From assembly GCA_039024555.1 (NCBI GenBank), contig JBCCQQ010000026.1, positions 12,239 to 76,238 on the forward strand: a stretch of 64,000 nucleotides of DNA. Reading direction: 5' to 3'. The notes beneath the pieces were generated by a model. It was not told the origin of the DNA. It did not search any database and worked only from the letters and a program-made list of their open reading frames with translations. This DNA is from Cyanobacteria bacterium P01_D01_bin.156 (lineage in GTDB: Bacteria; Cyanobacteriota; Cyanobacteriia; Phormidesmidales; Phormidesmidaceae). A program made the translations under genes and the position numbers. Positions 18,101 to 60,193 of this stretch are shown piece by piece; the first letter of the stretch is position 1, and the number at the start of each line of letters is the position of its first letter.

Positions 18101-19881
18101 TGCCCATCTTTCGCGAATTTGACATCCCACTTAACTGTATAGCGCACTGCTGGGAGATCAAAGTTTCCAGTAGAAGTTGAGGGCCCAGGATCCCCCCAAG
18201 ATTTATGACTGGTATCAAATGACGTTTTAGAGTCTACGTCCTCACCCTTTTCTCCGTCCTTGCCTGCACCAGGGTCTTGCCCTCGTCCACCGTTAGCGAT
18301 CAGCCGTTTCCGTAAATTTCTAGGATTACTCGGCTCTGCTACTTCTGAGACATAAATTGCCAGATTCCCGGCATGGCGACCGTCTACACCGTCTGCGCCA
18401 CTACGGTCTTGTCCAGGCTCGCCCGCACCTTTGGCCTTTGAAATGCTCCATCTGAGCGGCATGGTGTTGATGGCAGCATCGTCCGTTGCCCAAACAAGCC
18501 GTCGAGCATAGATGGTGACATCGGCTTCTGGCAAACAAAACTCACCCCCAATCTCAAGGGTGTCACAGCAAATTGTTAGAGATTTGGTCGTCGGTCTGTA
18601 GCTGCCATTATTAGGGTCAGCAGTATTGCTTTGGCGATCGATGTGTAGCTTTCCCCACAGTTGATTGGGATGCTGTGGAGACAGGGTGATATGTACACCA
18701 GTAATGATGTGATTTTCTGTTTTATCGTCGTTTTCAGTGTGGAATTCGCTAATGTACAGCCCACTATCGGCTGGTGTCGCTTCCGTTTTTGACTGCACAA
18801 AGGTTTGCTGAAGACTGACAACCGTAGCCGTTTTCGCTTCACGCGATGGAGATGAGTCGTCAGCATTGCCAGGCTGTTCAGCGAGAAACTCAGAGGGGGC
18901 AATTGTCGCAAATCGGATGCTACGGATTACCTTAATGCTCTCTCCTTCTTGACCTGCTAATGCAGCAAGGGCGTTACCCTGCAAATAGGCGCGAAACGGA
19001 CTGCCACCATTGCCACCACAGGGGCCTAGAACATTACCCTTGTTCGTCACAAAGCTAAGTTGGTCAATGGCCCAACCGCTCCTGCCAGAAACTTGAACAA
19101 CAAACTCATCTGTAGCTAAGTCAAGACGGTGAGCAGTCCCTTTTTCCTGACCATGGGTAATGACTGGCCCACTTGAATATGCTATGCGAACACCGTAAAT
19201 GCCCTCATGAACGTCGTCTCCAGCGATAAAGACGTCTTCACCTGAAAACACGGTAATTTGCTTAATCTTTCCCTGGACTGAGGGACTGTATTCTGCGTAG
19301 TTGTCAAAAACCTCACCGCGATCAGAGCCACCTTTGCCGTATGTTCTTGAATATAGATAGGGCCGAAGGTTAGATGCGGCCATGGAGATAAACCGAATGC
19401 TACGGATATCGTTTACGCTTTGGCTTTTGCGCCCAGCAAATGCTACCAGCACCTTCCCCTCAATGTCGTAGGTGAATGGCTCTCCACCGCCGCCACCATA
19501 AGGGCCAAAGACCCTACCTTGATTAGTTGTAAAACTAAGCTGATCGATTATCCAGCCGCTAGTGCCAGCGATTTGAGAGATATACTCGTCTTCTTCTAGC
19601 AATACATAATCTGTTTTGCCTGTCTGGGTACCGTGGACGACAGAGTGACCATTCTCATAGAGTACTTTGATCCCTATAATGCCCTGGACGATTAAGTCTT
19701 TTGAGGGAAAATGATTTTCTCCTGAATAGACAATGATCTGCTGAATCATGCCCCAGTTGGAAAGGTCGTATTGAGGAGAGTCGTCAAAGACAATACCCGG
19801 ATCTACGCTCCCCTCGCCGTAGGTGAGACTTGAAGAAAAAGAAATAGCTGGCATAATGCGACCCCATTGATGACTAATCAC
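15175..19881 (-). CDS. Large multidomain toxin-like protein: 2x jacalin lectin, Gly-rich region, coiled coil with hydrophobic segment, C-terminal SH3b-like domain
   Basis: Two repeats SGW.IDQLSF.TN.G...GP.GG.GG (jacalin); GxxG runs; long heptad region; C-terminal GWRWVNYRGLIGWVK. Start may be ATG 19854. Confidence 0.7.
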   Translation of the reverse strand: MISHQWGRIMPAISFSSSLTYGEGSVDPGIVFDDSPQYDLSNWGMIQQIIVYSGENHFPSKDLIVQGIIGIKVLYENGHSVVHGTQTGKTDYVLLEEDEYISQIAGTSGWIIDQLSFTTNQGRVFGPYGGGGGEPFTYDIEGKVLVAFAGRKSQSVNDIRSIRFISMAASNLRPYLYSRTYGKGGSDRGEVFDNYAEYSPSVQGKIKQITVFSGEDVFIAGDDVHEGIYGVRIAYSSGPVITHGQEKGTAHRLDLATDEFVVQVSGRSGWAIDQLSFVTNKGNVLGPCGGNGGSPFRAYLQGNALAALAGQEGESIKVIRSIRFATIAPSEFLAEQPGNADDSSPSREAKTATVVSLQQTFVQSKTEATPADSGLYISEFHTENDDKTENHIITGVHITLSPQHPNQLWGKLHIDRQSNTADPNNGSYRPTTKSLTICCDTLEIGGEFCLPEADVTIYARRLVWATDDAAINTMPLRWSISKAKGAGEPGQDRSGADGVDGRHAGNLAIYVSEVAEPSNPRNLRKRLIANGGRGQDPGAGKDGEKGEDVDSKTSFDTSHKSWGDPGPSTSTGNFDLPAVRYTVKWDVKFAKDGHQAWGEGRFPEDGHPASPPGRPGNGGNAGKLTTNLYSLIGSLQNAGGRAGIQERTYIGGSAGQPSHCGIYHIEVKYRYLSPVEPRSVDLRQEHRTYKGNDAPAPAATRGDGHFSTPSIISVSNPWLHPLSLQKILDYARDLYLAENRETLAGLLNIYATALIAEMPNVGDVWTDDAAKGQWNAVRQEMTGMLQRLRLNLDYFGNPGGFMPQFSLAAEATQYKNEISRSLRMLLLVRWIEDQQTRATKAAEAFEKAIETANEDIERAADNVVDARRKIAELNSRISFLKSQLEVLSHRLASLQKQLMEEARDNLERQRKIQFGINIATTICQVFPVGQPALGSIVGSLGGVASNLAENDSLAAPDTLAAIGAVFETVDEVRSAAQETTEDDSDPQVLSQIGAGMGPALLGVSEGLQALQVPQSEVEAELQKLIAESEAWQTLVQDIRTLNEHKTKFAEDLAKTCSALSDSYAQISTNATAVLSMQKGRTDQLDYVSPEMLGRIQQMGQRSRMALVNRLYTMVKAYETTVFQPLTRVDWKLTDVTEEISRLLQGQSEFNPEDFEAHTQALEPIFDEILQDIRSKLREDFNINRRTQVFEVEFTPSQTPGIINTINRTGKASFNPMDILFQTLSDYQLMRLSDIEILSLTLGEGSPTLHNFETITIRLSRNGIVRREEHLYAVYSEQPLSWSWSYIGDSADIQWRENDRSVSNQDNANLIIGDGGSDIKQKFALPPAWSDMELELKEYSEAKQLNPDMENLKIETIKLALSFDVTDASDYQKVIKISPSDGISGTVINCSPDLADRRGFLSDGFRIYSAGKTITISVPKESKAAESEEWNANPALRRGIQKLDDNALKSHEITFNVNHHIDLEYSWEPVSEFVDSIDSLPHYTYRKPGEEEQKTPMALVAEALVVSYEQPTKSAAEIGVKILQKPMDGSAVLATLSSLEKADIKKEIDGWRWVNYRGLIGWVKLGSPL

Positions 19882-20261: not shown

Positions 20262-21575
20262 TTACCCCGGCCAACGCAACACAACAACCTCTTCCCGCAG
20301 ATCCACCTCAGTTTTAGACGCCCGTCGTGTCCTAAACAAATCCACATTCACCAGCTGATAGCCCAGATCCTCAGCCATCATCGCCAACAACGACCCCGTG
20401 GGAATATGCACCTGCAAATAGGACGCCTGTTCCCCCACCACATAGGCCAGCTGTGCCCCCGGACGTAGTACGGATCGTAAATTCGCTAAATGGCGAGCCA
20501 TGCCGCCAAAGTACAACGTCGTAGCCCGAGCATAGAGCCGAGAGAAACCGCTGGTTTTCCCTAACTCTTCCCGGCGTTGATTAATGGTGTGGGCCAGCTC
20601 TAAAATTTGTGGATAGGCCTGAATCCATTGGTCGTCCGTGTCGTCGCTATACACCCCCCGACTGTTGGAGCGCAACAGCTCATGCTTAACCGCTTTTAAC
20701 CCCGCTTTGTTTTCTAAGAAGCCTAGCAGCACCGACTCTAAACGAGTGGTGCGGGTATAGTCCTTTTCATTCGGATATGGGGGCGACGTAATCACCACAT
20801 CGACAGAATTGGCCGCTAAATAACAGTGGGGTTGTCGTGCATCGCCCAGGTGCACTTGGCCAGTGGAGCGCAACGACTGTTCTGCAAGCAGTTCCAAGTC
20901 CTGGGCCATGGTCTCAACCCGCTCTAGCCACAGCTCCACCACCGGAGCATCGGCCTTATGTTTACGAGAAACTCCCACCTCCGGGGCAAACCGTAGATTG
21001 CTAGCTAGAATTGCCGCATTGGCCAGGGCCAGCCGATGACAATGAACAGTGCTGGCAGAAGATGAATCTCGATCGATGTATCCCAGCAGTGTGAGCACCT
21101 TTTGCAAGGGGCGGGGACTGATGGCATTTTTCAGCAGCAGATCAGCCGCATCCTTGGGTAAGGTGGGCGCTAAATCAGGCAACAATGCCAGCTCATCTTG
21201 CACCGCTGTGGCAATGCGCTGCGCCGATGCTCTTAAGACTTTGGGTGAGACAGACCAGTCTAACTTTACACTGGACGCAAAGTGGGCCATGGGGTTTGCT
21301 TCAATACCCTGGGCCGGAATCCCTAATTTTTGGGCTTCCACTAGGGTCGTTGCCGTGCCCGCAAACGGATCTAGTACCACGGTTTGGTTGGTTGCCGAGA
21401 ACTGTTGCAAATAGTGCCTGACCAAATGGGGCGGAAACGACAGTACAAACCGATACCAATGATGTACTGCCCGATCCTGATCGCTCAGTTGATTACGTGC
21501 CTTGCAGCCCAGCTCAAGCCCGAGCAGTTCTGAATCAGATTCTTTAGTGGCGGATAGCTTAAGCGATGACATCAA
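20262..21575 (-). CDS. Orphan amino-DNA methyltransferase (probable m4C, alpha order)
   Basis: VLDPFAGTATT (motif I) precedes VITSPPY (motif IV). Confidence 0.88.
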   Translation of the reverse strand: MMSSLKLSATKESDSELLGLELGCKARNQLSDQDRAVHHWYRFVLSFPPHLVRHYLQQFSATNQTVVLDPFAGTATTLVEAQKLGIPAQGIEANPMAHFASSVKLDWSVSPKVLRASAQRIATAVQDELALLPDLAPTLPKDAADLLLKNAISPRPLQKVLTLLGYIDRDSSSASTVHCHRLALANAAILASNLRFAPEVGVSRKHKADAPVVELWLERVETMAQDLELLAEQSLRSTGQVHLGDARQPHCYLAANSVDVVITSPPYPNEKDYTRTTRLESVLLGFLENKAGLKAVKHELLRSNSRGVYSDDTDDQWIQAYPQILELAHTINQRREELGKTSGFSRLYARATTLYFGGMARHLANLRSVLRPGAQLAYVVGEQASYLQVHIPTGSLLAMMAEDLGYQLVNVDLFRTRRASKTEVDLREEVVVLRWPG

Positions 21576-21769: not shown

Positions 21770-22453
21770 GTGAGACAGCTAAAGCAAAACACCCATGAAT
21801 TAGTTCTACGCTTTTCCTATTGGGGGCACTCGCACATCGCTGGTGGAGTGACAAATTTGGCACGGCTGGGAGCCTTAAGTTTAGGGCTGATGGCTTGGTT
21901 GGGCTATCAACAGGCTCCAATCGTGTGGATTGTTTTAATGGCGGTGGGGATTTTGCTGATCTTGATGGAGCCATTTGTGCCGGCCTTGTATCCAGAAATT
22001 GCTACCTGCATTTTTAATAAGTCATCAAATCTATTGACGATTATTCACGAGATTCCTAGGGGACGAAAGCGACAGCGGCGGTTAACCCAATATCGATTGA
22101 GCCAGATCGATAAAGTTCATGTCTATCGACAGCGAATTGGCCTGTGGCGCTGGAACTATGTATTAATCATCGGCATCTCTTCTCCGGCTGATACCTTAAT
22201 CCATGTCAACGGGCTATCTGATCAGGTACTTATCCAAACAGGGACTAACCCCATTCAGCTCTTGTCTAAAACAGTGCGATATCACCTGGGGAAGCGTACC
22301 TTGGTTGATTGGTCGTTTATCACTGTTCCCCAGGGACTAGAAACCACCGATATCGGTCGTCGAATTGTAGCTCGCAATTCTATGGAACGTTTAGATAAAC
22401 ATGATTTGCGCCGGTTTGCTCAAATTATTGAACAGTTTATTTGGGCTCCCTGA
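21770..22453 (+). CDS. Hypothetical membrane protein
   Basis: 227-aa ORF with two N-terminal hydrophobic segments. Confidence 0.6.
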   Translation: MRQLKQNTHELVLRFSYWGHSHIAGGVTNLARLGALSLGLMAWLGYQQAPIVWIVLMAVGILLILMEPFVPALYPEIATCIFNKSSNLLTIIHEIPRGRKRQRRLTQYRLSQIDKVHVYRQRIGLWRWNYVLIIGISSPADTLIHVNGLSDQVLIQTGTNPIQLLSKTVRYHLGKRTLVDWSFITVPQGLETTDIGRRIVARNSMERLDKHDLRRFAQIIEQFIWAP

Positions 22454-23285
22454 GGGGATGTACGAGTCCCAGTCCTAGGGTGGTCTTTTGACCAATGCCA
22501 CAATAGCGACTAAAGCTGACCAGGGCATTGATGCGCTTAATGGTCAGCGGATCGGCAGTAGGTGAAATTTGAAAGGCGATGGCACCTAAACACCCCACCG
22601 TGGTTTCATTGTTGCCCACGGCCATGGGTACGGTTTTGAGGTCAAAGGTTTTGGCACTTATTGGGGCAATCGTATTCGGGGCAAAGACCAATCCACTGTA
22701 GCGATTCCAGCATTTTCGTAGACCGTGAAAAATAGCATCCCGTGTGGGTAGCGGAGACTCTTGATTTCCCTGACAGAATACGGCGGGGGTCAGTAACTTG
22801 AGGGTCATTTCTAAATGCCGGTCAGATGCCTGCTGATACAGCTGGGAGTAGCTGGCGTGGTTGGTCCACTCGGGAATATTGGTCGGTAGGAAATTGGTGA
22901 TGTGTAATCGACTTGGCCCTAAATACCAGGGTTGACGAGCCGCTACCTTTGCTAACCGCGGACTGATGTGGGCAAACAGGGTGTCATCCAGCAGAGAAAT
23001 ACGCCACCAGCAGTGAGCCCCCGCTGGAATTGAGGTGTTGGTAAAGGAGACTGTCCCCTGCTGCTGGGGCATCAAAAATTTGAGGTTGTTGGTAATAGCC
23101 GGTGACTGTGGGGATATCTGTAGCGGGCTCAGGGTAAAGGCTGGTTTGGTTTGTAGGGTTTGACTAAGATTGCTATCAACGGCACTGACTAGAGCTAGAA
23201 ACAACCGATATAAGTAATGGCCTCTAAGGTATTGATGCGGAATGGTTGATTCTGAAACTAGGCTAATGACTAGGCTTTCTGGCAT
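22437..23285 (-). CDS. cas6: CRISPR-associated endoribonuclease Cas6 (stand-alone)
   Basis: N-terminal MP.SLVISL, FTLSPL, WWRISLLDDTLF, C-terminal G-loop YCGIGQKTTLGLG. Confidence 0.9.
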   Translation of the reverse strand: MPESLVISLVSESTIPHQYLRGHYLYRLFLALVSAVDSNLSQTLQTKPAFTLSPLQISPQSPAITNNLKFLMPQQQGTVSFTNTSIPAGAHCWWRISLLDDTLFAHISPRLAKVAARQPWYLGPSRLHITNFLPTNIPEWTNHASYSQLYQQASDRHLEMTLKLLTPAVFCQGNQESPLPTRDAIFHGLRKCWNRYSGLVFAPNTIAPISAKTFDLKTVPMAVGNNETTVGCLGAIAFQISPTADPLTIKRINALVSFSRYCGIGQKTTLGLGLVHPLREPK

Positions 23286-28223: not shown

Positions 28224-29364
28224 AACAACACCCTTTGCGTACAGTAGACGGCAGTGACTCTGGGCTATGGAAAACCAGGACAGACGGAATTAGCCCAACG
28301 GCTCTAAGGCTCATTAAAACGGATAACTGTCAGGCGGTTGAATTCCTTATTCTTTCTTTATTGTACGCTTGAGGTGTTTCGATATTTAAGGAGTGAACCT
28401 ACGTTGGTTAATCTCTCTCGATTTGGCTCTTCTTTGTAAACAACAATTTTTAGGAAGTCCTTCGTTTGAATGCACTTGGACCGCGAGGGGCAGTCACTTC
28501 GTCCTTGGGAAAGGGCCGTTGCTGGTTGGCAACTGGATTTACTGAATGTGGATATGGCGTGGAAGTGAATCTTAAAGTGAGATCGATGGCCTCTTTTTGA
28601 GTCCTGTTGTGGACTACTTAGTCTTTATTTGAGAATAAGCCTGAGCTGCGTTTTTGGTTAAGCGAGTGGCTTGGCTAAAAACCGATAGAGGCGATTTCCG
28701 TTGATTTTGCTGCGGAGTGGCAATGGAATGAATGGATCGTGGTCCACAGTAAAGATTTGTGGTTTTTAAAAGGCTGGATGCTTTGTGGGGTATGGTTTAG
28801 CTGCTGCTTAAAAGGTGGCTAAACACTTCAGAAAAATATGGCTTATTTTTAGTCCATTTTTAGTCCACTGGACTTACAGACTCTTATAAAACCCTTGACA
28901 TTATTGGGATTTTATTTTTTGAATATTTGCTTAGTACGCAACTAGTCAATCGCGTTTTCTGAGCCTATGCAGGTATTCGATATTCAATCACTGCTGGGAG
29001 GGAGTCCCCCCTTGTCAGATACGTGAAGAAGGGGCGGGCCAAACAACAAGGCGATATCCTGATTAATCGACCTCGCCGTAACTCCTAATTAATGCCATTA
29101 AGGACAACCTAGTAGGCTGGGTTGTAGGGCGGCCTCCCGGCCCTGCCCAGAGGGTTTGGGGAACTCGGCGGGACCCCAAGCAACCGGTTTTGGCTCCCAT
29201 TCGAGCCGATGATTCAGTATCAACAAACCCACAAGCCTTACAGATTTTCTATGGTAAACACGAAATAACCCTGCTCTCGAGAGGGGATTTGGTCGGTAGT
29301 CTGCTGGATGGTTCTTGCCTACAATGATGTAGTCGATACCCTGCGTATCTGGTAAATCACCCCT

Positions 29365-29691
29365 ATGACGCTCCAGTAACTTCAACCTCAGCTATTGGCA
29401 CTATCTCCAGAAGAAAAAGCTCAGGCTATAAATCTATTGGTGGCCAGTCTTACTGATAGCTGGCCGAGAATACAAAAAACGGCGGGTGTGATGGGTGGTG
29501 ATGCCTGTATCCGTCAAACACGAATTCCGGTTTGGTTGTTGGTAAGTTTGCGTCATCAGGGGGCAACTGAAGCTTATTTGCTTGAGGATTATCCAGATTT
29601 GACGGCAGCGGATTTAGCAAATGCATGGCTCTATGCAGATGCCCATGCAGATGAGATTGATGCTGCTATTCAGCGACAGGCAGCGGCATAA
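29365..29691 (+). pseudogene. DUF433 antitoxin with in-frame TAA at codon 5 (possible restart at TTG 29395)
   Basis: ATG ACG CTC CAG TAA CTT CAA CCT CAG CTA TTG...; downstream GVMGGDACIRQTRIPVW...YPDLT DUF433 motif. Confidence 0.7.
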
Positions 29692-29693
29692 CC

Positions 29694-30038
29694 ATGGCTC
29701 GACTTTATTCAGATGAGGGGTTTCCTAAAAAGGTTAGTGAAAAACTCAAGCAGCTGGACCATGATGTTTTGACTGTGCAAGAAGCGGGGCAGGCTAATCA
29801 AGGTATTCTAGATGATCAGGTGCTGGCCTATGCGACAGACAAAAATCGGGCTGTATTGATCATAAATCGGGCAGATTTTATTCGTTTACATCGGCAGAGT
29901 TCTGATCATGCTGGTATTGTTGTTTGTACAGAAGATTTGAACAGAGAGAGATTAGCGAATCGAGTTCATGCAGCCATTTCGAAGGAAGATACGCTGTCAG
30001 GAAAACTTATTCGCGTGAATCGACCTGACAAGGATTGA
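29694..30038 (+). CDS. DUF5615 PIN-like toxin
   Basis: LYSDEGFP, HDVLTV, DDQVLAYA, NRADF, HAGIVV; coupled to DUF433. Confidence 0.85.
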   Translation: MARLYSDEGFPKKVSEKLKQLDHDVLTVQEAGQANQGILDDQVLAYATDKNRAVLIINRADFIRLHRQSSDHAGIVVCTEDLNRERLANRVHAAISKEDTLSGKLIRVNRPDKD

Positions 30039-30074
30039 AAGTAGATATTCAGACTATTCATGATACAAGAATCT

Positions 30075-30314
30075 TTATTGATATTTTTGGATTAGATAAT
30101 CGGTGTAATTATTCGTTAGTGATTCGTCTGTCAGCGCAGCGCCAGGTTGTTTGGCAATTCCTCTAAGACTGGTCAAAGTCCCTGCTGGGATGAATCGTTG
30201 CCCAGTAGGTGTCTGTGTTTTTTGCTGGATAAACTGGGCAAATAGCCAGACTAATTTAGCCTGTTCTTCTGGTAGTTGGTTGACTAACTCGTATATCGTT
30301 TCGGCTATAGTCAT
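30075..30314 (-). CDS. Small DUF2281-like protein
   Basis: IYELVNQLPEEQAKLVWLFAQFI...YLIQKYQ. Confidence 0.65.
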   Translation of the reverse strand: MTIAETIYELVNQLPEEQAKLVWLFAQFIQQKTQTPTGQRFIPAGTLTSLRGIAKQPGAALTDESLTNNYTDYLIQKYQ

Positions 30315-30399
30315 TGCGCTAAAAAAACCGAGGTGCTAACGCGCCAAAGAGGGAAAAGAGAAGAAAGAACAAAGGGCAAGAAGGAACCAGGGCAAAGGG

Positions 30400-32547
30400 C
30401 TACGAAGAAGTCCACGAGGAGACGCAGACAACTCGAAAACCGATGTTATCGTTCCTGTCACCGCGCGCGCGCCTGCCGCGATTGGCCGAGCGGCAGTAAG
30501 CTGGAGCGTAGAGCCAGGAACCGCCCCGCAGCAGCCGTCTGGACGCATCACCGCCACTAACCCAGGTACTACCATCTGTAGGTGCTCCCTGATAATTTTC
30601 ATGCCAGCGGTCTAAACACCATTCCCATACATTGCCGTGCATATCATACAGACCAAATGCATTGGCCGGAAAACTACCCACCTCCGTAGTTTGTTGCCGG
30701 TATTCACCTTCCGGTCCCTCACCATAGGCATGGTTGCCATCATAGTTGGCAATATCCGTCGTCAGTGTCTCCCCAAAGTGAAACGGGGTGTTTGTCTCTG
30801 CTCGACAGGCATACTCCCACTCGGCTTCGTTGGGCAGACGATACGCCCGACCTGTATGTTTTAAGAGACGCTTACAAAACTCAACCGCATCTTCCCAAGA
30901 AACTCTCTCAACTGGCCGGTTTTCACCTTTGAAATTAGATGGGTCAGACTCTAGAGCACGTTCAATCGTAGGCATATCGGCTACCACTTTCCACTGAGCC
31001 TGCGTTACCTCATATCGACCCATCAAAAATGGCTGGACTGTCACCTTATGCTGAGGCTTTTCATCATCAGCCCCTTCTCCCTCAGGCGACCCCATCTGAA
31101 ATAAGCCACCCTCAATTGGCACCAGCTCCAGGGTAATCTCTCCAACATTCTCTTCAAATACAGAAGATATTTCTTCTTGATCACTGACGATTTCACCTGT
31201 TTCATTGACCGTAACGACTCGAATACCTGTTTGTTTAAAATCTATGGCTGTAAGTGGTGGTGCATTTAGAAAAGTCTCTGGTATTGAGGTGTCAGGCTCT
31301 GGCTTATATAAAGCTCTGCCCAAGAAAATAGTCCCAACACTACCCCCCGTAAAGCCTAGAATTTGTATCAGTTTTCGACGACTAAGCCGATCTAGAGAAT
31401 ACGACAAAGTTGTTTTAGTAGTATTTGGGAAATCCTGACGCTGAGACTGACGAGAGGGTATAGTAGCCGGTTTAGGTTTAACTACATCTGGTCGTACACT
31501 GGCCTTTGGCGTAGTTGGTGTAGGAACAGCCTTTGGTTTAGGTGGCTTAGCGGGTAGTGGCAATGGTTTAGCAGCACGGGCCGTAGCTGTAATGGTTGGA
31601 GGTTGCTTGAGCGGAGGCTCTGAGGCACTCGGTTGAGCAGTCCCCCGAGCTAAACGCTCAATGCCAGCGATCGCATCAGGATCACCCGGCGACACCACCG
31701 AAACTCGAATCCAAAGCTGCCGAGCAGTTTGACTATCCTGCTCTACCTCCGCCATCAGTGCATCATTTTTGAGCGCTACCACATCCGTCAGCGTCGCCTG
31801 AGCTGGCAACAAAATTAAATGACTTTTACTCGGTGGTTCAATCACCCCATAGGGCGTTTGGGCCACTCGCTTATACTGCCGCGTCAGCTGGGGCACATAG
31901 TAGCGTAACCGCTGATATAGTCGCTCCACTGTGGCACAGTTACCCTCTCCCTGCAGCCGCAGACTATCGATCAACACATGGGTAAACGCTCCATGCTGCA
32001 ATTCCTGAATTTCATAGGACGACTCTTCAGGACTACAGGAAAACAGAGTAATTACCCCCTGCTGTTTTTCCTCACCAATACCCACCGCACCTCGACGTCC
32101 TTCATAACTACGACAGGCATCGATCAGCAAAATAATATTGTCTGCGCCACTGCGTCGTAGGCGCTCGCTAAGGTAATGAATTGGAATCGCAGATTGCTCT
32201 AGGTCGCCGAGATCTCCATCAATGGGCATTAAATAATCACGATCTTGCTTACGAATGCCATGCCCTGCAAAAAAGCACCACAGATTATCACCTTCCCGCA
32301 AAAAGGGCTTTTCAAAACGTGTCCTAAAAAATCGCCGCAGTGTAGTACAGGTGGGTACCGCATCCAACTCGGGGCCACGATCCTGGGGAATCGGCGCGGC
32401 ATCTTCAGCGAAGTGATAAACCTTCTCAAACTTAAGTTCATCAATAAAAAACTGACGCACCGATTCAGCGTCCTGCTTTGCATAGTTCAGCCGTCGCAGG
32501 TAGCTATAGTCATTGATGCCAATAGTAATTGCCCAGTTTCTGGCCAT
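30400..32547 (-). CDS. Caspase-family (C14) peptidase fused to FGE-sulfatase/CLec domain, paralogue A
   Basis: FAGHG and LIDACR dyad; RLPNEAEWEYACRA, NAFGLYDMHGNVWEW, RGGSW, GFRVV; internal RR + hydrophobic segment. Confidence 0.92.
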   Translation of the reverse strand: MARNWAITIGINDYSYLRRLNYAKQDAESVRQFFIDELKFEKVYHFAEDAAPIPQDRGPELDAVPTCTTLRRFFRTRFEKPFLREGDNLWCFFAGHGIRKQDRDYLMPIDGDLGDLEQSAIPIHYLSERLRRSGADNIILLIDACRSYEGRRGAVGIGEEKQQGVITLFSCSPEESSYEIQELQHGAFTHVLIDSLRLQGEGNCATVERLYQRLRYYVPQLTRQYKRVAQTPYGVIEPPSKSHLILLPAQATLTDVVALKNDALMAEVEQDSQTARQLWIRVSVVSPGDPDAIAGIERLARGTAQPSASEPPLKQPPTITATARAAKPLPLPAKPPKPKAVPTPTTPKASVRPDVVKPKPATIPSRQSQRQDFPNTTKTTLSYSLDRLSRRKLIQILGFTGGSVGTIFLGRALYKPEPDTSIPETFLNAPPLTAIDFKQTGIRVVTVNETGEIVSDQEEISSVFEENVGEITLELVPIEGGLFQMGSPEGEGADDEKPQHKVTVQPFLMGRYEVTQAQWKVVADMPTIERALESDPSNFKGENRPVERVSWEDAVEFCKRLLKHTGRAYRLPNEAEWEYACRAETNTPFHFGETLTTDIANYDGNHAYGEGPEGEYRQQTTEVGSFPANAFGLYDMHGNVWEWCLDRWHENYQGAPTDGSTWVSGGDASRRLLRGGSWLYAPAYCRSANRGRRARGDRNDNIGFRVVCVSSWTSS
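30409..30534 (-). repeat. Putative DGR variable repeat VR-A
   Basis: 126 nt, 109/126 identical to 33352-33477; mismatches mainly at codon positions 1-2. Confidence 0.8.
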
Positions 32548-32622
32548 AACCAGCAGTCAGACGTCAGGAGTTAGTTTAAAGATACGATATCCGAGTTTTG
32601 GATTCCTCAAACAGCTTTACGG

Positions 32623-33018
32623 CTAGCCACCTTTTCCATCTGGACGCGTGAACTTTAGGGTAATGCCGCCTGAATTAGCCAACTTGCCACCATTGCCGAC
32701 TAAACTAAGCTGACCTTCAGCATTGATTTCCACCGATAGTTCTACTTCGTTAAGCTGCAATCCTGTCTCTGTGGTCGCCTCATCAAACAGTTCATTAACC
32801 ACCGCCAGCATTCCCTGCATCTGAGTCTTCAAAGCCTGTGCATCTAGGGGAACACGTTTACGGTTTAAGCGTTGCCTAATGACTTCAATCGGCCCTTGAG
32901 ATGGCTCTGCTCCCCAGCCACCACCGGTATCGGCACTGTTGCGTTCACCGTCGATGGCGGTAATTTCTTCCGTTTCTTCAACGTCAGCAATGATGTAAAG
33001 CTGGGGGCTATCAGACAT
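32623..33018 (-). CDS. Pepco-like (peptidase co-occurring) protein
   Basis: LQLNEVELSVEINAEGQLSLVGNGGK...GITLKF; immediately upstream of the caspase gene. Confidence 0.7.
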   Translation of the reverse strand: MSDSPQLYIIADVEETEEITAIDGERNSADTGGGWGAEPSQGPIEVIRQRLNRKRVPLDAQALKTQMQGMLAVVNELFDEATTETGLQLNEVELSVEINAEGQLSLVGNGGKLANSGGITLKFTRPDGKGG

Positions 33019-33044
33019 GGGACAGGCTCCTTATAAGGAATTAA

Positions 33045-33250
33045 GGGGGAGTGCAGCTAACCGTTCAGCCAGGCTTACCAGGCTATCTGCACCGTTGTAT
33101 TTTTGGATACCTCGATGGATATCGCTGGAGCAGGTCTGGACTCTTCTGATGGTACGCCCGACAGATTCCCACCTGTCAGTTCTGACCGGCCAGTTCCAGG
33201 AGACTCCTAAAACCAGACCTATAAGAGTGCACCAGGAGCCGCAGACAACT
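33045..33250 (-). ncRNA. Putative remnant of DGR RNA: template-repeat 3' end plus structured spacer
   Basis: 33223-33250 (minus AGTTGTCTGCGGCTCCTGGTGCACTCTT) matches the VR-B 3' end at 24/28; followed by several hairpins. Confidence 0.6.
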
Positions 33251-33345
33251 TCTTAAAAATAAATCGATCGCGCCAAGCGCGAAAAGAAATAAGGAATATT
33301 TTTATTTCTTCAGAGCAAAGTGCAAAAACAAACCAGGGCAAAGAG

Positions 33346-35283
33346 CTACAGAGTCCACGAGGAGCCGCACACAACTCGAAAACCGATGTCGTGGTCCCTG
33401 CCGTCGCGCGCGTACCTGCCGCGATTGGCCGAGCGGCAGACATCTGGATAGTAGCGCCAGGAACCGCCCCGCAGCAGCCTCCTTGCATTGTCGTTAATAG
33501 ATAACCAAGCACTGCCATCCGTAGGAGCCTTTCTAAATAAGCCTCCATAGCTATCATGCCAATGGTCTAAACACCATTCCCACACATTGCCATACATGTC
33601 ATACAGGCCAAAGGTATTCGCAGGAAAACTACCGACATTTGTGGTCTGTTTTCGATACGCTCCTTTAGGGCCAGAACCATAGCTATAGTTGCCGTCATAG
33701 TTGGCCAGTTCAGGCGTAACGGTTTCCCCAAAATAAAATGGTGTCGTCGTTCCTGCTCGACAGGCATATTCCCATTCCGCTTCACTGGGTAGACGATAGT
33801 CTCGACCTGTCTTTTTCGACAAGCGCTGACAAAACTCAACTGCATCGTCCCAAGAAACTTGCTCAACAGGACGATTATTACCTTTGAAATTAGCAGGATC
33901 GGCCTTTAGTTCACGCGCCACCCTAGGCAAGGCCGCAACCACTTTCCACTGGGTCTGCGTTACCGGATACTTCCCCATCAGAAACCGCTTAACTGTCACC
34001 TGATGCTGGGGCCTTTCATCGTTATCCCCCTGGCCCTTTGGTGAGCCCATTTGAAATGTGCCACCGGGTATGACGACCAAATCTAAACTGAAACCCTGGT
34101 CCAAGGATTCTTGTCGGTACTCTGCCCTCTTTTGCTCACGCTTAACGATATTCCCCTTGGCATCAACCTTGACTACGTCAAACTCAAAGGTAGGAGCTTT
34201 TTTAGAGGGAGCCTTACTAAGTACCTTAGGTATCTCCACCTGCTCCATAGTGTTCTTTGGTGGCACGGATAACGGCACTTGAGACGGAGACTTTGGTTCT
34301 TCTACTAAAGAGCTACGTTCTCCCTGAGGTCTCTCTGAAGGGAACGTTAATGGTTTTACCTTAGACGGTTGCTGACTACACCGCAGGGCAATCCGTTGCA
34401 ACGCTTTCACCGCTTGTCGATCTCCAGGAGAAGCGACCAAGACGCGGATCCAAAGTTGTTCTGCTAAATCCCAAGCAGTCTCTGCTTCTGCCTCTAGAGC
34501 ATCCACCTTTAACGCTTGCACATCCTGTAATGTCGCCTGAGCAGGCAACAGAATTAAGTGCAGCTTGGTGGCAGGTTCAACAATGGCATAGGGTGTTTGC
34601 GGTTGCTTTCTATAGCGTCGATTCAGGTCCGGCACCTGATAGCGCAAATGCTGATACAGCCGCTCTAACGTGGCACAGTTACCTTCTCCCTGGATGCGCA
34701 ACCCTTGCAATAGGGCATAGGTAAAGGCCCCTTGCTGGAGTTCATCAATCTCGTAGGACAGTTCACTGGGACTACAGGCAAACAGCGTGATTACCCCTTG
34801 CTGTTGTTCAACGCCTATGCCTTCTCCCCCATCGCGGTCATCCTCATCCCGGCAGGCATCCAGCATGAGCACAATATTGTCAGCACCGCAGCGCCGCAGC
34901 CGATCCGAAATATCTCGAATCGCCAGACCCGTGCGTCCTACATTGCCAGGATCTCCATCTACGGGCATTAAATAATCTCTTCCTTGAAACCGCTTGCCAT
35001 GGCCCGCAAAGAAAAACCAAAGATTATCCCCCGCTTCTAGAAAACCACGCTCAAAGCGCACCCTAAAAAATCGTTCCAGATTGCCAATGGTCGGTTCAGA
35101 TCGTAGCGGTGGTCCATAATTCTGACGAATAGGGTCTGCATCTTCAGCAAAAAAGTAAACCTGCTCAAACCCAGCGGACAGGCAAAAATCGCGCATGGCT
35201 GCTGCATCTTTTCTGGCATATTTCAGCGGTTTGAGATTGTAATAGCCATTAATACCAATGCAAATAGCCCAGTTTTTGCTCAT
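33346..35283 (-). CDS. Caspase-family (C14) peptidase fused to FGE-sulfatase/CLec domain, paralogue B
   Basis: FAGHG and MLDACR dyad; RLPSEAEWEYACRA, NTFGLYDMYGNVWEW, RGGSW, GFRVV. Confidence 0.92.
   Translation of the reverse strand: MSKNWAICIGINGYYNLKPLKYARKDAAAMRDFCLSAGFEQVYFFAEDADPIRQNYGPPLRSEPTIGNLERFFRVRFERGFLEAGDNLWFFFAGHGKRFQGRDYLMPVDGDPGNVGRTGLAIRDISDRLRRCGADNIVLMLDACRDEDDRDGGEGIGVEQQQGVITLFACSPSELSYEIDELQQGAFTYALLQGLRIQGEGNCATLERLYQHLRYQVPDLNRRYRKQPQTPYAIVEPATKLHLILLPAQATLQDVQALKVDALEAEAETAWDLAEQLWIRVLVASPGDRQAVKALQRIALRCSQQPSKVKPLTFPSERPQGERSSLVEEPKSPSQVPLSVPPKNTMEQVEIPKVLSKAPSKKAPTFEFDVVKVDAKGNIVKREQKRAEYRQESLDQGFSLDLVVIPGGTFQMGSPKGQGDNDERPQHQVTVKRFLMGKYPVTQTQWKVVAALPRVARELKADPANFKGNNRPVEQVSWDDAVEFCQRLSKKTGRDYRLPSEAEWEYACRAGTTTPFYFGETVTPELANYDGNYSYGSGPKGAYRKQTTNVGSFPANTFGLYDMYGNVWEWCLDHWHDSYGGLFRKAPTDGSAWLSINDNARRLLRGGSWRYYPDVCRSANRGRYARDGRDHDIGFRVVCGSSWTL
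33352..33477 (-). repeat. Putative DGR variable repeat VR-B
   Basis: Near-identical to VR-A; followed by a pyrimidine-rich tail and CGCGC-TTG-GCGCG hairpin. Confidence 0.8.
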
Positions 35284-35472
35284 GGTTAGCGATTTTCAAG
35301 AGGCGCATCTAGCTTAAACCAAAAAACTATGCCAGATCAGGAGCTAGATCATCAACCACAGTTTAGTCAAATTTCCCTCAAAACAGGCCCATTGATAAAA
35401 AATCACCCCAACGGGTGCCACCCGCCAAAAACACCAGGCTTTGCTCCACCAGCTGCCAGACCAAAAACGCAA

Positions 35473-35700
35473 GACTCAAAATGAGACTAGTGCTCTTAAA
35501 ATGAGTCTCGATATTGAAGTCATCAATCTTGAATTGAGACTGATAATTTTTACCCGCAGAGAGTCTTGCCTTAGCCCTACCAATTCTCAAAGTGGCTTCA
35601 GCTTTCAAAAGCCACCACTTGATATCAGTCATTCAAATCAGCAGCACCAGCACAAAACATCTGTCTCAAAATAAAATTAATCGTCTTAAATTAAGTCTTA
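35473..35700. promoter_or_regulatory. Second cluster of RTCTYA-N3-TRAGAY-like palindromes
   Basis: GACTCA-AAA-TGAGAC 35473, CTCTTA-AAA-TGAGTC 35493, ATCTTG-AAT-TGAGAC 35526, GTCTTA-AAT-TAAGTC 35683. Confidence 0.6.
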
Positions 35701-35834
35701 AAATAGTTATTTTAATCTCTTCTTAAGACTGGCTTTTCAGTCAAAGAAAGCTACTCATCTAGTAAAGAAACAACCGGTTAGGAATGCGCGGAAAAATAAT
35801 GGACCCATTGAGAGGCTTGGCGATAACTGGTTCG

Positions 35835-35925
35835 CCTTACGAAGGGGAACCGTCAGGGAGGGGTTTTCGACACTGGCGCTATCAATCGAAACCCCTCCGC
35901 CTACGGGCACCTCCCCTTCGTAAGG
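35835..35925. repeat. REP/MITE-like imperfect palindrome
   Basis: CCTTACGAAGGGGA (35835) pairs with TCCCCTTCGTAAGG (35912); inner GAGGGGTTTTCGA/TCGAAACCCCTC. Confidence 0.65.
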
Positions 35926-36003
35926 GGAGGAAATCTCATAGCGTAATTCCAAACCGGTATTCTATTTATTCGCAATTCTCTTATCTACTCCCAAAAACTT
36001 TTC

Positions 36004-36585
36004 CTATGCCAAGGTCCAGTCAAATTCCATCTGCCTGGCCGTCTTCTTCGCCAAATCCAGACTATGCAACTTACTAACCAAATACAAACTCATATCAATA
36101 CCTGCAGAAATCCCCCCCGACGTCACCACATTGCCCGCATCAACCCAGCGAATATTTTCTTGTACATCCAACCCTGGATACTGCTGACGTAGGTCCGGAA
36201 TATCTTCCCAGTGGGTTGTCACCGATTCTGTAGTAATCACCTGAGCAGCTGCCAGCAAAAAAGCCCCCGTACAGACAGATGCCGTCACCTTAGCCGTTTT
36301 CGCCTGTTGCCCAACCCAACTAATCACCTCAGGCTTAACCATTTCCGCCGTATGCACACCTCCCACAATTATCGGCACATTAATCTCCAAATGATCATCA
36401 AACCCATAGGTGGGCACAACTTGATAACCACCCCGAGCAGTTACCATCTCCCCAGTTTGGCTAATCAAAAATGTTGTAAAGGGAGCACCATCAGAACAAA
36501 CTCTAGAGGCCGTAGAGAATACTTCAAACGGACCCGAAAAGTCCAAAACCTCCGCCTGGTCGTAGATATAAATACCGATGTTCAC
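36004..36585 (-). CDS. DJ-1/PfpI family protein
   Basis: EVLDFSGPFEVF, SVCTGAFLLA, TSGGISAGID; GGAGG RBS before GTG 36585. Confidence 0.92.
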   Translation of the reverse strand: MNIGIYIYDQAEVLDFSGPFEVFSTASRVCSDGAPFTTFLISQTGEMVTARGGYQVVPTYGFDDHLEINVPIIVGGVHTAEMVKPEVISWVGQQAKTAKVTASVCTGAFLLAAAQVITTESVTTHWEDIPDLRQQYPGLDVQENIRWVDAGNVVTSGGISAGIDMSLYLVSKLHSLDLAKKTARQMEFDWTLA

Positions 36586-37591
36586 CCTAACCTCCAGAGT
36601 TTGACCTAACAACATCTGATTTGCCACATCAATATTAATTAAAGTGTTCCATCCTTGCTAATTACGCCATTTATGGCCTGTATGCACGCCATCGATAGGC
36701 CAGTAGTGGAATTAGGTGAAGTGCATAGCTGTGGTTCGTGTAAGGGAGACTAGTCTCAAAGCCCCCAGGATTGAAGGTTTGGGGCCAGAAAACGTTTAGC
36801 TATTTTGACGATCGCTTGCCCTTAGAAATTCCTTTAATAGACACATTAGGCATACCGGAATTTGGGAAGCCCCAGTATGCCTAATTGGAAAAACACGGAT
36901 GCGTCCGTAAAGGGCACTAATACCGCATTTTTAGTCTGAGATATGTGTACACGGTAAGTCCTAAGTTGAGATCAATAGAGTTTAATTGAGACTTGACTTA
37001 AGCCTATCTGTATTGAATTGAGACTCACCCTCCCATGGCAGCGATACCTACCAATAACAAGAAAATCAACGTAAATCTGCTACCTTGTCAGACTTCCTAA
37101 AACTCTGCATTACCGCAGGATGTAGTAAACAGCACGCTACATAAGAAAAATCTCCTTAAACCACCCAAGGCGATAAGAAAAACCTGTTCGTTTTCCAGTA
37201 AGAAAAATTGAAAAAGATTATTTTATGTGTTTTTAACGAGAGAATAATCCAACATTTTATACCGTAGATATAATTACCTTGTTTCAGTCAAAAAAGGGTG
37301 TTAAACCGACTATTCCTGGAAAAATCGTTTCCTTTATGCATTTTCCCTAGGGAGTTTTGCGGCTAAATTTCATTGTTTCTTTGATGAGAGTAAATTAACG
37401 TAGCGATTTATCTACGCAATTTGCCTTAAGTAAATAGCTGGTTTGGCTAAATGTATTTGACGACTGTTTTGCGACAGTGGTCTCGTTTTAGGTGCAAAAC
37501 CATGTAGCACAGCTGCAGGGTTGCATTGTCTTCGAAGGTCGTGACCATAGGTCACTTTTGAGGTTGCTGACGTTCTTTTAAAGAAGAAAAT

Positions 37592-38228: not shown

Positions 38229-39131
38229 ATGAACCTAGTCTCCTTAGAACGCCATACCACCCAAACGCTGTTGGGAATCTGTTTTTGGGACCGGATTACC
38301 AATCGAGTGATTGTCGATGGTCTGCGGGTAACGGCGCAACGGCTCAGTGATGACCGGACCCAGCGTTTAGGTCGATTGGTGGTTGGCAGAGGGACGTCCA
38401 GCGGTGCGATCGCATTTTTTGGCCTTTCATCAGCAGAGATTCCTGCCGACCCGGATCAGCTGCTGTGGGACACCGTGCCGCCAGAACAGCTGGTGGTCAT
38501 TGACATGGTAGATAGCTTAAATCGCTTTTTACCCCTATCGTTTGTGGCGCGGTTACCCTTTCGGGGAGTGTTTCGCGGTCAGGGAGACTGGTTAGTAAAT
38601 TCTCTCCTGCGGCCTGAGGTAGATCCAGATCAGGCCATGGGGGTGCAGCTGTGGTCTAGCCCAACTCGACCGGTACCGCCAGGTGCAGCGGTTATCCGCA
38701 GTCAGCTGGTGGTGGGTGATGGAATAAATGCGCCCCCTGCCGCCTATGCCCTAGTGCACGTGCAGGACTCAGAATCACCGGAGGACTTTAACTACTACGG
38801 CCTCACGGATGCCCAGGGCAGTTTGCTCTTGCCCATGCCCTATCCCGATATCCCCGATCCAGTCCCTCCAGTAACAGACTATCCCCCCCTGGATCAACAA
38901 ACCTATGGTCTCACCATCACTGTACGGCACAGCACCCAAACCACTCTGCCCGGCAGCGATGTCCCTGATCTCGGAGCGTTGTTAAATCAGCCAGTGGCCG
39001 ATGTTGCTACCGAGCGAGCGGCTGATGACACGCTGCAGTTTGAGTCGAATCTATCCGTCAGTCTTCAGTTTGGGCGGTCCTTGATTTTAGGAACCGCCGC
39101 TGACCCCGTATTTCGGATTCAATCCGTCTGA
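38229..39131 (+). CDS. eCIS-associated hypothetical protein (possible cap-associated)
   Basis: Position between DUF4255 and sheath; beta-rich. Confidence 0.6.
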   Translation: MNLVSLERHTTQTLLGICFWDRITNRVIVDGLRVTAQRLSDDRTQRLGRLVVGRGTSSGAIAFFGLSSAEIPADPDQLLWDTVPPEQLVVIDMVDSLNRFLPLSFVARLPFRGVFRGQGDWLVNSLLRPEVDPDQAMGVQLWSSPTRPVPPGAAVIRSQLVVGDGINAPPAAYALVHVQDSESPEDFNYYGLTDAQGSLLLPMPYPDIPDPVPPVTDYPPLDQQTYGLTITVRHSTQTTLPGSDVPDLGALLNQPVADVATERAADDTLQFESNLSVSLQFGRSLILGTAADPVFRIQSV

Positions 39132-47510: not shown

Positions 47511-48224
47511 ATGACCGTTAGCCCTGCTCCCTGGCCCAGCATGATGCCGCCACCGCCTATTAGCGGTAATGGTGGTCCCTACTATGGCGTCTATGTTGGA
47601 CTGGTTACCGATGTCCAAGACCCCGATGGCCAGGGCCGGGTGCGGGTACGCTTACCCTGGACCACAGACCCTGAGGGCGATCCGTTTGAAATCTGGGCCA
47701 GGTTAGCCACTCTAATGGCCGGTAATAACCGTGGCAGCTGGTTTATTCCTGAACCCAATGACGAGGTGATTTTGGCCTTTGAGGGGGGCTGTCCCTGGTC
47801 TCCTATTGTGGTGGGTTCGGTGTGGAACGGCATGGATAAACCGCCGGAGTCCATGGATAACAATAACAACATCCGCGCCATTACCTCCCGCAGTGGTATT
47901 CGCGTCAGCTTTGATGACAAAGATGGCGGAGTGGAGTTCACCGTTGAAACACCGGGTGGGCAAAAAATTGTCTGTGGGGATACCCCAGCCACCATAGACA
48001 TGACCGACAGTAACGGCAATCAAGTCACCCTAGATGCCAGCGGCATTACCCTCAGCACCGGGGCTAAGGTCACTATCAATGCCACCACGTTAGATGTCTC
48101 CGCTAGCCTGGTCAATGTCAACGCTGGCATGAGTAAGTTTAGCGGCGTGGTGAAATCGGACACCAATATTACTAACACTACCGTCAGTGCCACCTATACC
48201 CCAGGAGCTGGAAACATATGGTAG
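47511..48224 (+). CDS. Spike, phage baseplate assembly protein V (gp5 OB-fold)
   Basis: DPDGQGRVRVRLPW, WARLA, PEPNDEVILAF, beta-helix tail. Confidence 0.92.
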   Translation: MTVSPAPWPSMMPPPPISGNGGPYYGVYVGLVTDVQDPDGQGRVRVRLPWTTDPEGDPFEIWARLATLMAGNNRGSWFIPEPNDEVILAFEGGCPWSPIVVGSVWNGMDKPPESMDNNNNIRAITSRSGIRVSFDDKDGGVEFTVETPGGQKIVCGDTPATIDMTDSNGNQVTLDASGITLSTGAKVTINATTLDVSASLVNVNAGMSKFSGVVKSDTNITNTTVSATYTPGAGNIW

Positions 48225-60100: not shown

Positions 60101-60193
60101 ACCGGTACCGGGTTAGATCAGGCCGCTGTTGCCAACCTCAGAAGTCTGGGTGAGCGGCTACTGGGGCAAGACCAGCTCTTTAGGAGGTTCTAA
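57188..60193 (+). CDS. CIS fibre/baseplate-associated protein with C-terminal helix-hairpin-helix repeats
   Basis: PNFFNGRILTASDLRDEQ...GVAYGL N-terminus; repeated G(I/V)...L...G...(E)LA.A.P motifs. Confidence 0.7.
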   Translation: MNSQFLDAVFTDGIQHPNFFNGRILTASDLRDEQAANLQRSRYLGQAVGSGVAYGLQVTGGQTALSITAGLAINRRGDGLCLPAVTTVELVLTEPLGNPQSPFVPCDVAGATTLTGQISTGYYLLAITSATRLSITMAPNSGLDGDSPGCTNRYEEMGVQFKLISLINDDFVSPIPTTALDRSRLAHECFGTNQLRVIAAEPQQQPTTYGLVDRLYENSRLTDCDVPLAVFHFQASVLQFVDMWPVRRLAIASTHWDAYLQDPFSGYITPRREAEAAAFLLQFQAHLEDLRTTGSPTTLVAEDYFEYLPAAGYLPIRSTSTNSRRFRVDDFFNTQNLPTEPLLPEQLRALFQESFYRAPIRPGLDDVDIYQVVGAPDLDPYRIFVRRTPILLSEPEDEPGDEPPAASGDLYVVVLSRTGEEIDADYIQFVRATNIQTGRIYVATKRAKQPPFGSFSQRTYAAYVKGAQEATRLKYAAVNTAVTENRRTFQIESRNPGPYIFNDLPAGTYTVNVEPTLSNLYGPGKVVTVRAKVTTTTDIIVGVYGSSFPINVDIADDYLNPEGVIVEGYRVNVLWPTYYVEWEKDLFAPNVGDPPGEDWVLRDDPLVALQLEEVMERQGINDPRVATADAVIYIRRDYNPTQTSETVTAFVQTRDGSRFPAVPLAADNALDKPATVDRTEISDFDRATVDQLQNVGLAGVDAIASAPTKLIAGVLGQSVEYSTSLINDAQTTLQEDFRNGYLGYPGITKAQSDDLKASFGDRVELANATPEDLSAILGDRASSGFVNRFLADVSNSVPTSAIDLASVGISEADQANLAEIGVTTNKTFRDLGATAAGREQLQETLNVSEATVNRYLETAAVNYAQGQLITAPEKSIGTLVGVPADVKATLANAGIGSAKELANADPDEIVTVTGISREETTGIIESAIPFGSRANITLVQGALKSDVDVETIESAGLTSARAISRADTERVTGTGLDQAAVANLRSLGERLLGQDQLFRRF

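What the first reader, a model, noticed from the sequence alone, without database searches (positions are those of the whole stretch)
30400..35283. Two caspase-CLec paralogues carry DGR-type variable repeats: candidate hypermutable sensor-proteases
Seen: the 3'-terminal 126 nt of both genes (30409-30534, 33352-33477) differ at 17 positions. Of these, 14 are codon positions 1-2 of NNC/NNT codons (e.g. GCT/TAT, TAC/GTC, CGC/TAC, AAC/GAC) and only one codon change is synonymous, whereas just upstream the genes differ freely at third positions. Both stops are followed by a shared CTTTGCCCTGGTT pyrimidine-rich tail; VR-B also has a GC hairpin. Known: this is the footprint of DGR adenine mutagenesis from AAY template codons, and FGE-sulfatase/CLec domains are standard cyanobacterial DGR targets, including remote ones. 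Inference: ligand-binding surfaces are diversified and coupled to caspases with intact His/Cys dyads, i.e. an adaptive recognition-to-proteolysis (immunity or cell-death) module.
Basis: partly seen in the sequence, partly recalled or inferred. Interest (0 to 1): 0.88.

Follow-up and report, generated by a model that had tools for sequence, protein, structure and literature searches.

The report
Frozen hypermutation relic in suicide-defence module
Two cyanobacterial sensor-protease genes really were rewritten by a targeted-mutation element, but its engine has been deleted from between them, leaving fixed sensors beside a probable pore-forming death protein, and relatives have lost the same engine repeatedly in different ways.

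Summary
The two caspase-CLec genes end in true DGR variable repeats: 13 of 17 differences fall on adenines of a relative's template. But this 99%-complete assembly has no RT, no Avd and no full template. Relatives carry avd-RT-TR-spacer exactly between gene B and Pepco; here about 1.57 kb is deleted, leaving the last ~28 nt of TR and an almost intact structured spacer RNA (33050-33250). The repeats have begun to drift (4 of 90 non-adenine sites). It is a recently disarmed DGR. Among 76 related loci, 8 cassettes are complete and 23 are partial, with about a dozen distinct lesions. Caspase-CLec DGR targets and degraded DGRs are published; the frequency of engine loss and a predicted N-terminal Pepco cut at Arg26 were not found in print.

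The parts
33346..35283 (-). Gene B, 645 aa: orthocaspase (H95/C144), helical region, disordered linker, CLec/FGE-sulfatase domain; former upstream DGR target
33352..33477 (-). VR-B, variable repeat at the 3' end of gene B
33268..33345 (-). Pyrimidine tract and GC hairpin (33268-33282) behind VR-B; in relatives avd starts 25-40 nt after this hairpin
33251..33267 (-). Deletion junction: 17 nt here against 1584 nt (avd, RT, 5' spacer, first ~100 nt of TR) in the complete cassette of L069
   Evidence: spanned without a difference by one contig of run X1
33223..33250 (-). Relic of the template repeat: its last ~28 nt only, none of the AAC codons
33050..33222 (-). Relic 3' spacer (Sp) RNA of the DGR, structure intact: 9-bp GNRA stem-loop at 33158-33179, TR-end/AAGAG duplex, two further stems
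32623..33018 (-). Pepco, 131 aa, putative protease-activated pore-forming effector; conserved G-x-R at Arg26
   Evidence: PMC12642450
30400..32547 (-). Gene A, 715 aa: orthocaspase (H96/C145), linker, CLec domain; former downstream DGR target
30409..30534 (-). VR-A, variable repeat at the 3' end of gene A
30332..30345 (-). GC hairpin behind VR-A with one stem mismatch; the orthologous hairpin in L072 is perfect

Best explanation
A Pepco-caspase-CLec defence module whose DGR has recently been disarmed. SHOWN (sequence comparison): the ancestral order was caspase-CLec(B), avd, RT, TR, Sp, Pepco, caspase-CLec(A); one template rewrote the ligand-binding tails of both genes; a ~1.57-kb deletion removed avd, RT and the variable part of TR, so both sensors are fixed at their last draw and now change only by ordinary mutation (confidence ~0.88). 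INFERRED from family knowledge (confidence ~0.6): the CLec domain binds a foreign molecule, probably a phage product; clustering activates the Arg/Lys-specific orthocaspase; it cuts itself in the basic loop after the catalytic Cys and cuts Pepco, which opens a membrane pore and kills the infected cell, sparing the filament. PREDICTED (confidence ~0.4): Pepco is cut in its N-terminal extension after Arg26, not in a C-terminal tail as in the one tested homologue.
For: 13 of 29 template adenines vs 4 of 97 other sites differ between VR-A and VR-B (p=5e-7; a second relative's TR gives 13/28 vs 4/98). Complete cassette at the same position in G030 (two contigs overlapping within the RT) and on one contig in L069. 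Window 33250-33052 aligns to TR end + Sp (83% over 199 nt; 115 bits, only hit in the genome). No RVT_1, no bAvd, no tblastn hit to Avd or 5 RT queries other than weak noise, no template-like sequence in an exhaustive scan. Drift since loss: 4 of 90 non-A differences between the repeats, against 0 in 6 of 11 comparisons in complete cassettes and 1-2 edge mismatches in 3; broken hairpin behind A. Loss is recent: 1 of 59 conserved Sp columns altered. Contigs of run X1 span both repeats and the junction with 0 differences at depth ~21. Catalytic H 37/37, C 36/37, D26/D142/E178 37/37; fold matches MALT1, metacaspases and TvpA. Pepco: basic residue at the Arg26 column 28 of 31, Gly two before it 29 of 31, C-tail at most 7 residues in 30 of 30.
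Against: The assembly is a draft of 149 contigs, none under 2.3 kb; a second DGR on a missing contig cannot be excluded. True trans targeting exists in relatives: VRs of L104 and L112 match a template elsewhere in their genomes at 0/68 and 0/70 non-A sites. Run X1 may be the source of the assembly and contigs drop rare variants. One complete cassette (L081) also shows 11/90 non-A mismatches and one (L069) has an indel, so the drift clock is rough. No ligand, proteolysis, toxicity or expression was tested. The only Pepco tested in print works with a serine protease and is cut near its C-terminus (PMC12642450, section 8). The Pepco model is low-confidence (pLDDT 65).
Confidence: 0.8

Rival explanations
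1. The genes are still diversified in trans by a DGR on a contig missing from the assembly (closest to the first reader's view).
For: Draft assembly without small contigs; TR/VR repeats break assemblies (G030's cassette is split); trans templates found for L104 and L112; trans activity reported in PMC10907252 section 8.
Against: The two repeats disagree at 4 non-adenine sites inside the copied region, which a shared active template would erase; A's hairpin is broken; only one Sp copy and no RT or Avd in 6.6 Mb; X1 contigs run unbroken through both repeats.
Confidence: 0.1
2. Same relic, but the proteins act in stress signalling or development rather than anti-phage cell death.
For: PMC7517822 (passages) favours regulatory roles for cyanobacterial DGR targets and notes non-death roles of orthocaspases; PADLOC matches only a generic caspase model and nothing for Pepco.
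Against: Pepco is co-oriented between the two proteases and lies beside a caspase in many related loci; its tested homologue is a death effector (PMC12642450); the locus is patchy and decays in close relatives (L144), as defence loci do.
Confidence: 0.2
3. Gene conversion or a recent duplication made the two 3' ends alike; no DGR involved.
For: Tandem paralogues can convert each other.
Against: Differences sit on template adenines (p=5e-7); a TR/Sp relic lies between the genes; orthologous loci hold the whole cassette.
Confidence: 0.02
4. The deletion is an assembly artefact and the cassette is intact in the organism.
For: Repeats can cause collapses.
Against: The junction does not join VR to TR at homologous positions: the tract and hairpin behind VR-B are kept; a separately assembled contig of run X1 (32522-33592) has the same junction with 0 differences; no RT sequence anywhere in the assembly.
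Confidence: 0.03

Closest known systems
Cyanobacterial DGRs with orthocaspase-CLec variable proteins (Vallota-Eastman 2020, PMC7517822; passages read)
   Same: [quoted passage not shown]
   Different: Here the deletion itself is visible with its junction, the genome has no RT at all, and Pepco is part of the locus.
DGR-diversified putative antigen sensors of multicellular bacteria (Dore 2024, PMC10907252, passages and section 8; Kaur 2020 PMC7159879 and 2021 PMC8195603, passages)
   Same: CLec/FGS sensor fused to or beside a peptidase effector, read as immunity; disrupted DGR loci described.
   Different: No MoxR/vWA ternary core here; no intact structural variant or trans template was found; loss is by clean deletion rather than transposon insertion.
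Pepco-protease antiviral modules (Evans 2025 preprint, PMC12642450; abstract, passages, section 8; figures not seen)
   Same: Pepco (PF24393) directly upstream of a protease fused to a sensor; FGE-type sensors and cysteine proteases are named as partners.
   Different: The tested pair uses a trypsin-like protease that removes a 2-kDa C-tail after Ile97; these Pepcos have at most 7 residues of C-tail and an N-terminal G-x-[RK] site, and the partner is a caspase.
Bordetella phage DGR RNA (Handa, bioRxiv 10.1101/2023.10.23.563531; abstract, sections 6, 10, 11)
   Same: 9-bp stem with a GNRA loop just downstream of TR, as reported for Cyanobacteriota, and a duplex between the TR 3' end and the spacer.
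   Different: The relic lacks the template and everything upstream of it, so it cannot serve for cDNA synthesis.

Membership tests
Diversity-generating retroelement (functional) | DGR reverse transcriptase in the locus or genome | tested here: not met
   0 matches in G000 (99.08% complete draft)
Diversity-generating retroelement (functional) | Accessory Avd | tested here: not met
Diversity-generating retroelement (functional) | Full template repeat differing from VR only at adenines | tested here: not met
   only the last ~28 nt remain
Diversity-generating retroelement (functional) | VR at the 3' end of a CLec gene with adenine-specific differences | tested here: met
   against templates of two relatives
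Diversity-generating retroelement (functional) | Structured spacer RNA downstream of TR | tested here: met
   23 of 41 pairs with two-sided changes in 13 sequences, 0 of 500 shuffles as high; structure derived from the same alignment
Diversity-generating retroelement (functional) | GC hairpin downstream of VR | tested here: inconclusive
   intact behind B, one mismatch behind A
Diversity-generating retroelement (functional) | Ongoing variation at target positions in the population | tested here: inconclusive
   contigs only, 0 differences; rare variants would be dropped
Orthocaspase (C14) | p20 fold with His-Cys dyad | tested here: met
Orthocaspase (C14) | Acidic S1 pocket, Arg/Lys specificity | tested here: inconclusive
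   D26, D142, E178 invariant in 37 of 37; their match to the MALT1 pocket residues is recalled; Arg/Lys rule from PMC5756287 (passages), which also warns against inferring activity in silico
Orthocaspase (C14) | Proteolytic activity | not testable with these tools
   needs assay
CLec/FGE-sulfatase variable protein (TvpA type) | FGE-sulfatase CLec domain with variable C-terminal surface | tested here: met
   (TvpA 2y3c, E 3e-24 by sequence); per-column entropy peaks at the template-adenine codons
Pepco-protease module | Pepco domain encoded next to a sensor-fused protease | tested here: met
Pepco-protease module | Cleavable ~2-kDa C-terminal tail as in SsPepco | tested here: not met
   1-7 residues after the last strand motif in 30 of 30
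Pepco-protease module | Oligomeric barrel, toxicity after cleavage | not testable with these tools
   monomer model pLDDT 65

The most novel reading that the evidence does not exclude
Hit-and-run hypermutation: when a DGR target is wired to a suicide output, the mutator is short-lived. Lineages gain or keep avd-RT-TR, draw new sensors, then lose the engine (VR x TR recombination, REP-associated or plain deletion) while keeping the death module, either to lock in a useful specificity or because continued mutagenesis yields self-reactive, lethal sensors. Most caspase-CLec genes of filamentous cyanobacteria would then be fixed products of past DGR activity, invisible to RT-anchored surveys, and their Pepco partners a second activation class opened by an N-terminal cut after a basic residue.
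Probability: 0.3. Interest if true: 0.75.

Novelty: new variant of a known kind. Interest (0 to 1): 0.5.

Why it matters
RT-anchored DGR surveys cannot see loci like this one, and VR-pair footprints alone over-call active hypermutation. In this sample partial cassettes outnumber complete ones about three to one, which turns the published guess that diversification parts are removed after selection into a countable question. The locus also offers two fixed, naturally selected sensors with a named candidate effector and a single predicted cleavage site, so ligand, protease specificity and output of a DGR-diversified bacterial sensor, none of them established for this class in the papers read, can be tested directly.

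Tried and rejected
Template search in the own genome by blastn, pattern, masked exhaustive scan including half-templates at contig ends: none. Rfam on 29000-37000: 1 sub-threshold chance match, no family for the spacer. Sequencing runs: no RNA holder listed, which says nothing on expression; X2-X4 hold only other organisms' relatives. Earlier findings: nothing returned. Caspase A + Pepco complex prediction was never run, so binding is untested. Pepco monomer model too weak for a fold search. HIP1-mediated deletion: one CGATCG core lies at 33264 next to the junction but the genome holds 2557 full HIP1 sites and none marks the right end; not supported. VR x TR homologous recombination as cause of this deletion: rejected, the tract and hairpin behind VR-B are kept (it does fit L070 and L098). 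REP-like word at this junction: absent. A Fisher test of non-adenine drift used only the zero-mismatch controls and is not relied on. The pattern missed two templates known (L096, L138), so its blanks are weak.
Full report
1. Observation. The two genes (B 33346-35283, A 30400-32547, minus strand) each encode Peptidase_C14 plus FGE-sulfatase/CLec. Their 126-nt ends differ at 17 sites, 14 at codon positions 1-2, with one synonymous codon change. Four-fold sites differ at 37 of 69 upstream and 1 of 21 in the repeat. Against the template of relative G030, 13 of 29 adenines but 4 of 97 other sites differ between the repeats (p=5e-7); a second relative's template gives the same. The footprint is real DGR mutagenesis.

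2. What is missing. The host is a cyanobacterium; the closest named records returned are Adonisia, Leptothoe, Phormidesmis and Leptolyngbya. Its assembly (6.6 Mb, 149 contigs, 99.08% complete) has no RVT_1 match, no bAvd match, nothing significant by tblastn with Avd and five RT queries, and no template in an exhaustive scan; the next-best sequence is a decayed repeat in a TIR-CLec gene on C136 (75 of 93 fixed sites).

3. What was there. In G030 the orthologue of B (84% identical caspase part) is followed by avd and RT, then on an overlapping contig by TR, spacer, Pepco and the start of an A-like caspase. L069 has B, avd, a 353-aa RT, TR and spacer on one contig. In the window, the hairpin behind B is followed after 17 nt by the last ~28 nt of TR and the spacer; the same distance is 1584 nt in L069. 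So about 1.57 kb holding avd, RT and all variable template codons is deleted. The relic is the only spacer hit in the genome (115 bits). Thirteen spacers share a covarying structure (23 of 41 pairs with two-sided changes, 0 of 500 shuffles as high; the structure was predicted from the same alignment) that includes the 9-bp GNRA stem-loop reported for cyanobacterial DGRs (bioRxiv 10.1101/2023.10.23.563531, section 10); it is not in Rfam. One contig of run X1 spans VR-B and the junction and another spans VR-A, both with 0 differences; X1 may be the source sample and contigs hide rare variants.

4. How long ago. The relic alters 1 of 59 conserved spacer columns (intact ones 0-9 in leave-one-out), so loss is recent. 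The two repeats differ at 4 of 90 non-adenine sites. In 11 VR-TR comparisons from cassettes with an RT, 6 had none, 3 had 1-2 at the repeat's edge, L081 had 11 of 90 and L069 was unusable (indel); 4 further pairs from RT-less loci failed to anchor. At two of the four sites the TR relic shows which repeat mutated. The hairpin behind A has one stem mismatch against a perfect one in L072. Both reading frames and catalytic residues remain intact.

5. The pattern in relatives. One search kept the best 80 of 598 confirmed stretches, giving 76 named loci, a set biased to close relatives; handle-derived loci were left out of the count because some duplicate them. By my reading: 8 of 76 have avd, RT, TR and spacer; 3 end at a contig edge within the RT; 23 hold a partial cassette (6 avd stubs, 8 VR joined to spacer, 6 TR plus spacer without avd and RT, 3 other); 42 show no trace (some are short contigs or were never targets). 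The tree limits this: 12 of the 23, all Nostocales-type, form one supported clade (99/95) and may be one or two events, possibly a non-autonomous form. Outside it the break points differ (avd ending near residues 21/41, 29, 33, 56, 95, 102, 103; L070; L098; L082; L101; L163; the window): about a dozen lesions. Of 15 of the 23 genomes searched with a full DGR RT, none had a full-length close match, one had a 201-aa piece at 79%, and two records titled complete or nearly complete had no match. Against this, L104 and L112 have a perfectly matching template elsewhere, so a missing local engine does not always mean inactivity. Tandem repeat pairs without a local template show a gradient of drift: 0, 4, 4, 5, 8, 12, 15 and 34 of 90. 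In L144 both flanking genes are already truncated, which fits plain decay as well as lock-in.

6. How it most likely works. The model of B has a confident caspase domain, a helical region, a disordered linker (306-361) and a CLec domain (mean pLDDT 76.5), matching MALT1, metacaspases, PvdO and TvpA. His is invariant in 37 of 37 and Cys in 36 of 37; D26, D142 and E178 are invariant, which I read as the acidic pocket of Arg/Lys-specific C14 proteases (specificity rule from PMC5756287; residue equivalence to MALT1 recalled). The middle gene is Pepco (E 1e-29). PMC12642450 shows a Streptomyces Pepco to be a pre-formed beta-barrel that kills after a serine protease removes its C-tail, and names FGE-fused and cysteine proteases as other partners. 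The 31 Pepcos aligned here have at most 7 tail residues (30 of 30 scored) but an N-terminal extension with Arg/Lys in 28 and Gly two residues before in 29; the caspases' own loop after the catalytic Cys has similar basic, Gly-rich words. I infer: ligand binding by CLec, caspase activation, cut of Pepco after Arg26, pore, death of the cell. Every step of this chain is inference; other basic sites (residues 49-55) are possible, and no binding prediction could be run.

7. Comparison and novelty. It works like a DGR-diversified sensor-peptidase defence module but is not a functional DGR: RT, Avd and template tests fail. Orthocaspase-CLec targets, remnant repeats and the lock-in idea are in PMC7517822; immune reading in PMC10907252, PMC7159879 and PMC8195603; PMC5758913 discarded over half of candidate DGRs as inactivated or incomplete. 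Searches found no paper that counts cassette deletions in these loci or proposes an N-terminal Pepco cut; the library lacks most subscription papers, and I read no supplements or figures (Fig. 5A of PMC12642450 and the tables of PMC7517822 may show such loci). What I saw: passages of PMC7517822, PMC7159879, PMC5758913, PMC5756287, PMC8195603, PMC8867640; passages and one section of PMC10907252; abstract, passages and one section of PMC12642450; abstract and three sections of the Handa preprint.

8. Verdict. Observation confirmed, interpretation partly supported. A recently disarmed DGR on a Pepco-caspase-CLec module: new variant of a known kind, interest 0.5.

Noticed in passing
window 37592-63753 (+): Large contractile injection system cluster (Pvc16_N, two sheaths, two gp19 tubes, CIS_tube, GPD, Phage_base_V, gp25, Baseplate_J, Tail_P2_I, AAA ATPase) with several genes without Pfam match (38229-39128, 48218-50098, 55103-57184, 60193-61707).
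   Followed up: partly
window 29395-30038 (+): DUF433 + DUF5615 pair, toxin-antitoxin-like (label recalled), convergent with gene A; in L144 the same pair abuts a caspase A cut off at residue 93.
   Followed up: partly
G000:C136, L065:788-1966 (-): TIR-CLec gene with an older, more decayed variable repeat of the same template family (75 of 93 fixed sites) and a 13-aa gap in the CLec domain; a second TIR-like ORF and a transposase fragment lie beside it.
   Followed up: partly
L080, L083, L088, L096, L124, L138 (about 7650-8600 or 1800-2400 in locus coordinates): Nostocales-type loci keep target, full TR and spacer but no avd or RT; where measurable VR and TR differ at 1-3 non-adenine sites, yet 4 of 5 genomes searched had no close DGR RT. 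Non-autonomous DGR or very recent loss; unexplained.
   Followed up: partly
L070:7750-7914, L098:6100-6256: VR joined directly to the spacer, the product expected from recombination between VR and TR; the target gains a few C-terminal residues.
   Followed up: partly
right-hand side of 13 cassette break points (L072, L145, L073, L086, L093, L103, L108, L167, L170, L162, L082, L121, L144): GTAG-type palindromic words (REP-like; label recalled) within 250 nt in 8 of 13, against 72 of 558 background tiles that include coding DNA; absent at the window's junction.
   Followed up: partly
L163:3556-5490: In the Acaryochloris marina record the RT of a caspase-CLec/Pepco DGR is split by about 1 kb of other sequence.
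   Followed up: no
window 33050-33250 and alignment A1: The cyanobacterial DGR spacer RNA is a strongly covarying ~200-nt structure without an Rfam family; a model of it finds DGR relics that RT searches miss.
   Followed up: partly
window 22440-23285 (-) and 20265-21572 (-): Cas6 gene without other cas genes among the window's long ORFs, near a DNA methyltransferase-like gene.
   Followed up: no
window 15178-19854 (-): 1559-aa protein with Jacalin-like lectin domains and a long coiled-coil-like part.
   Followed up: no
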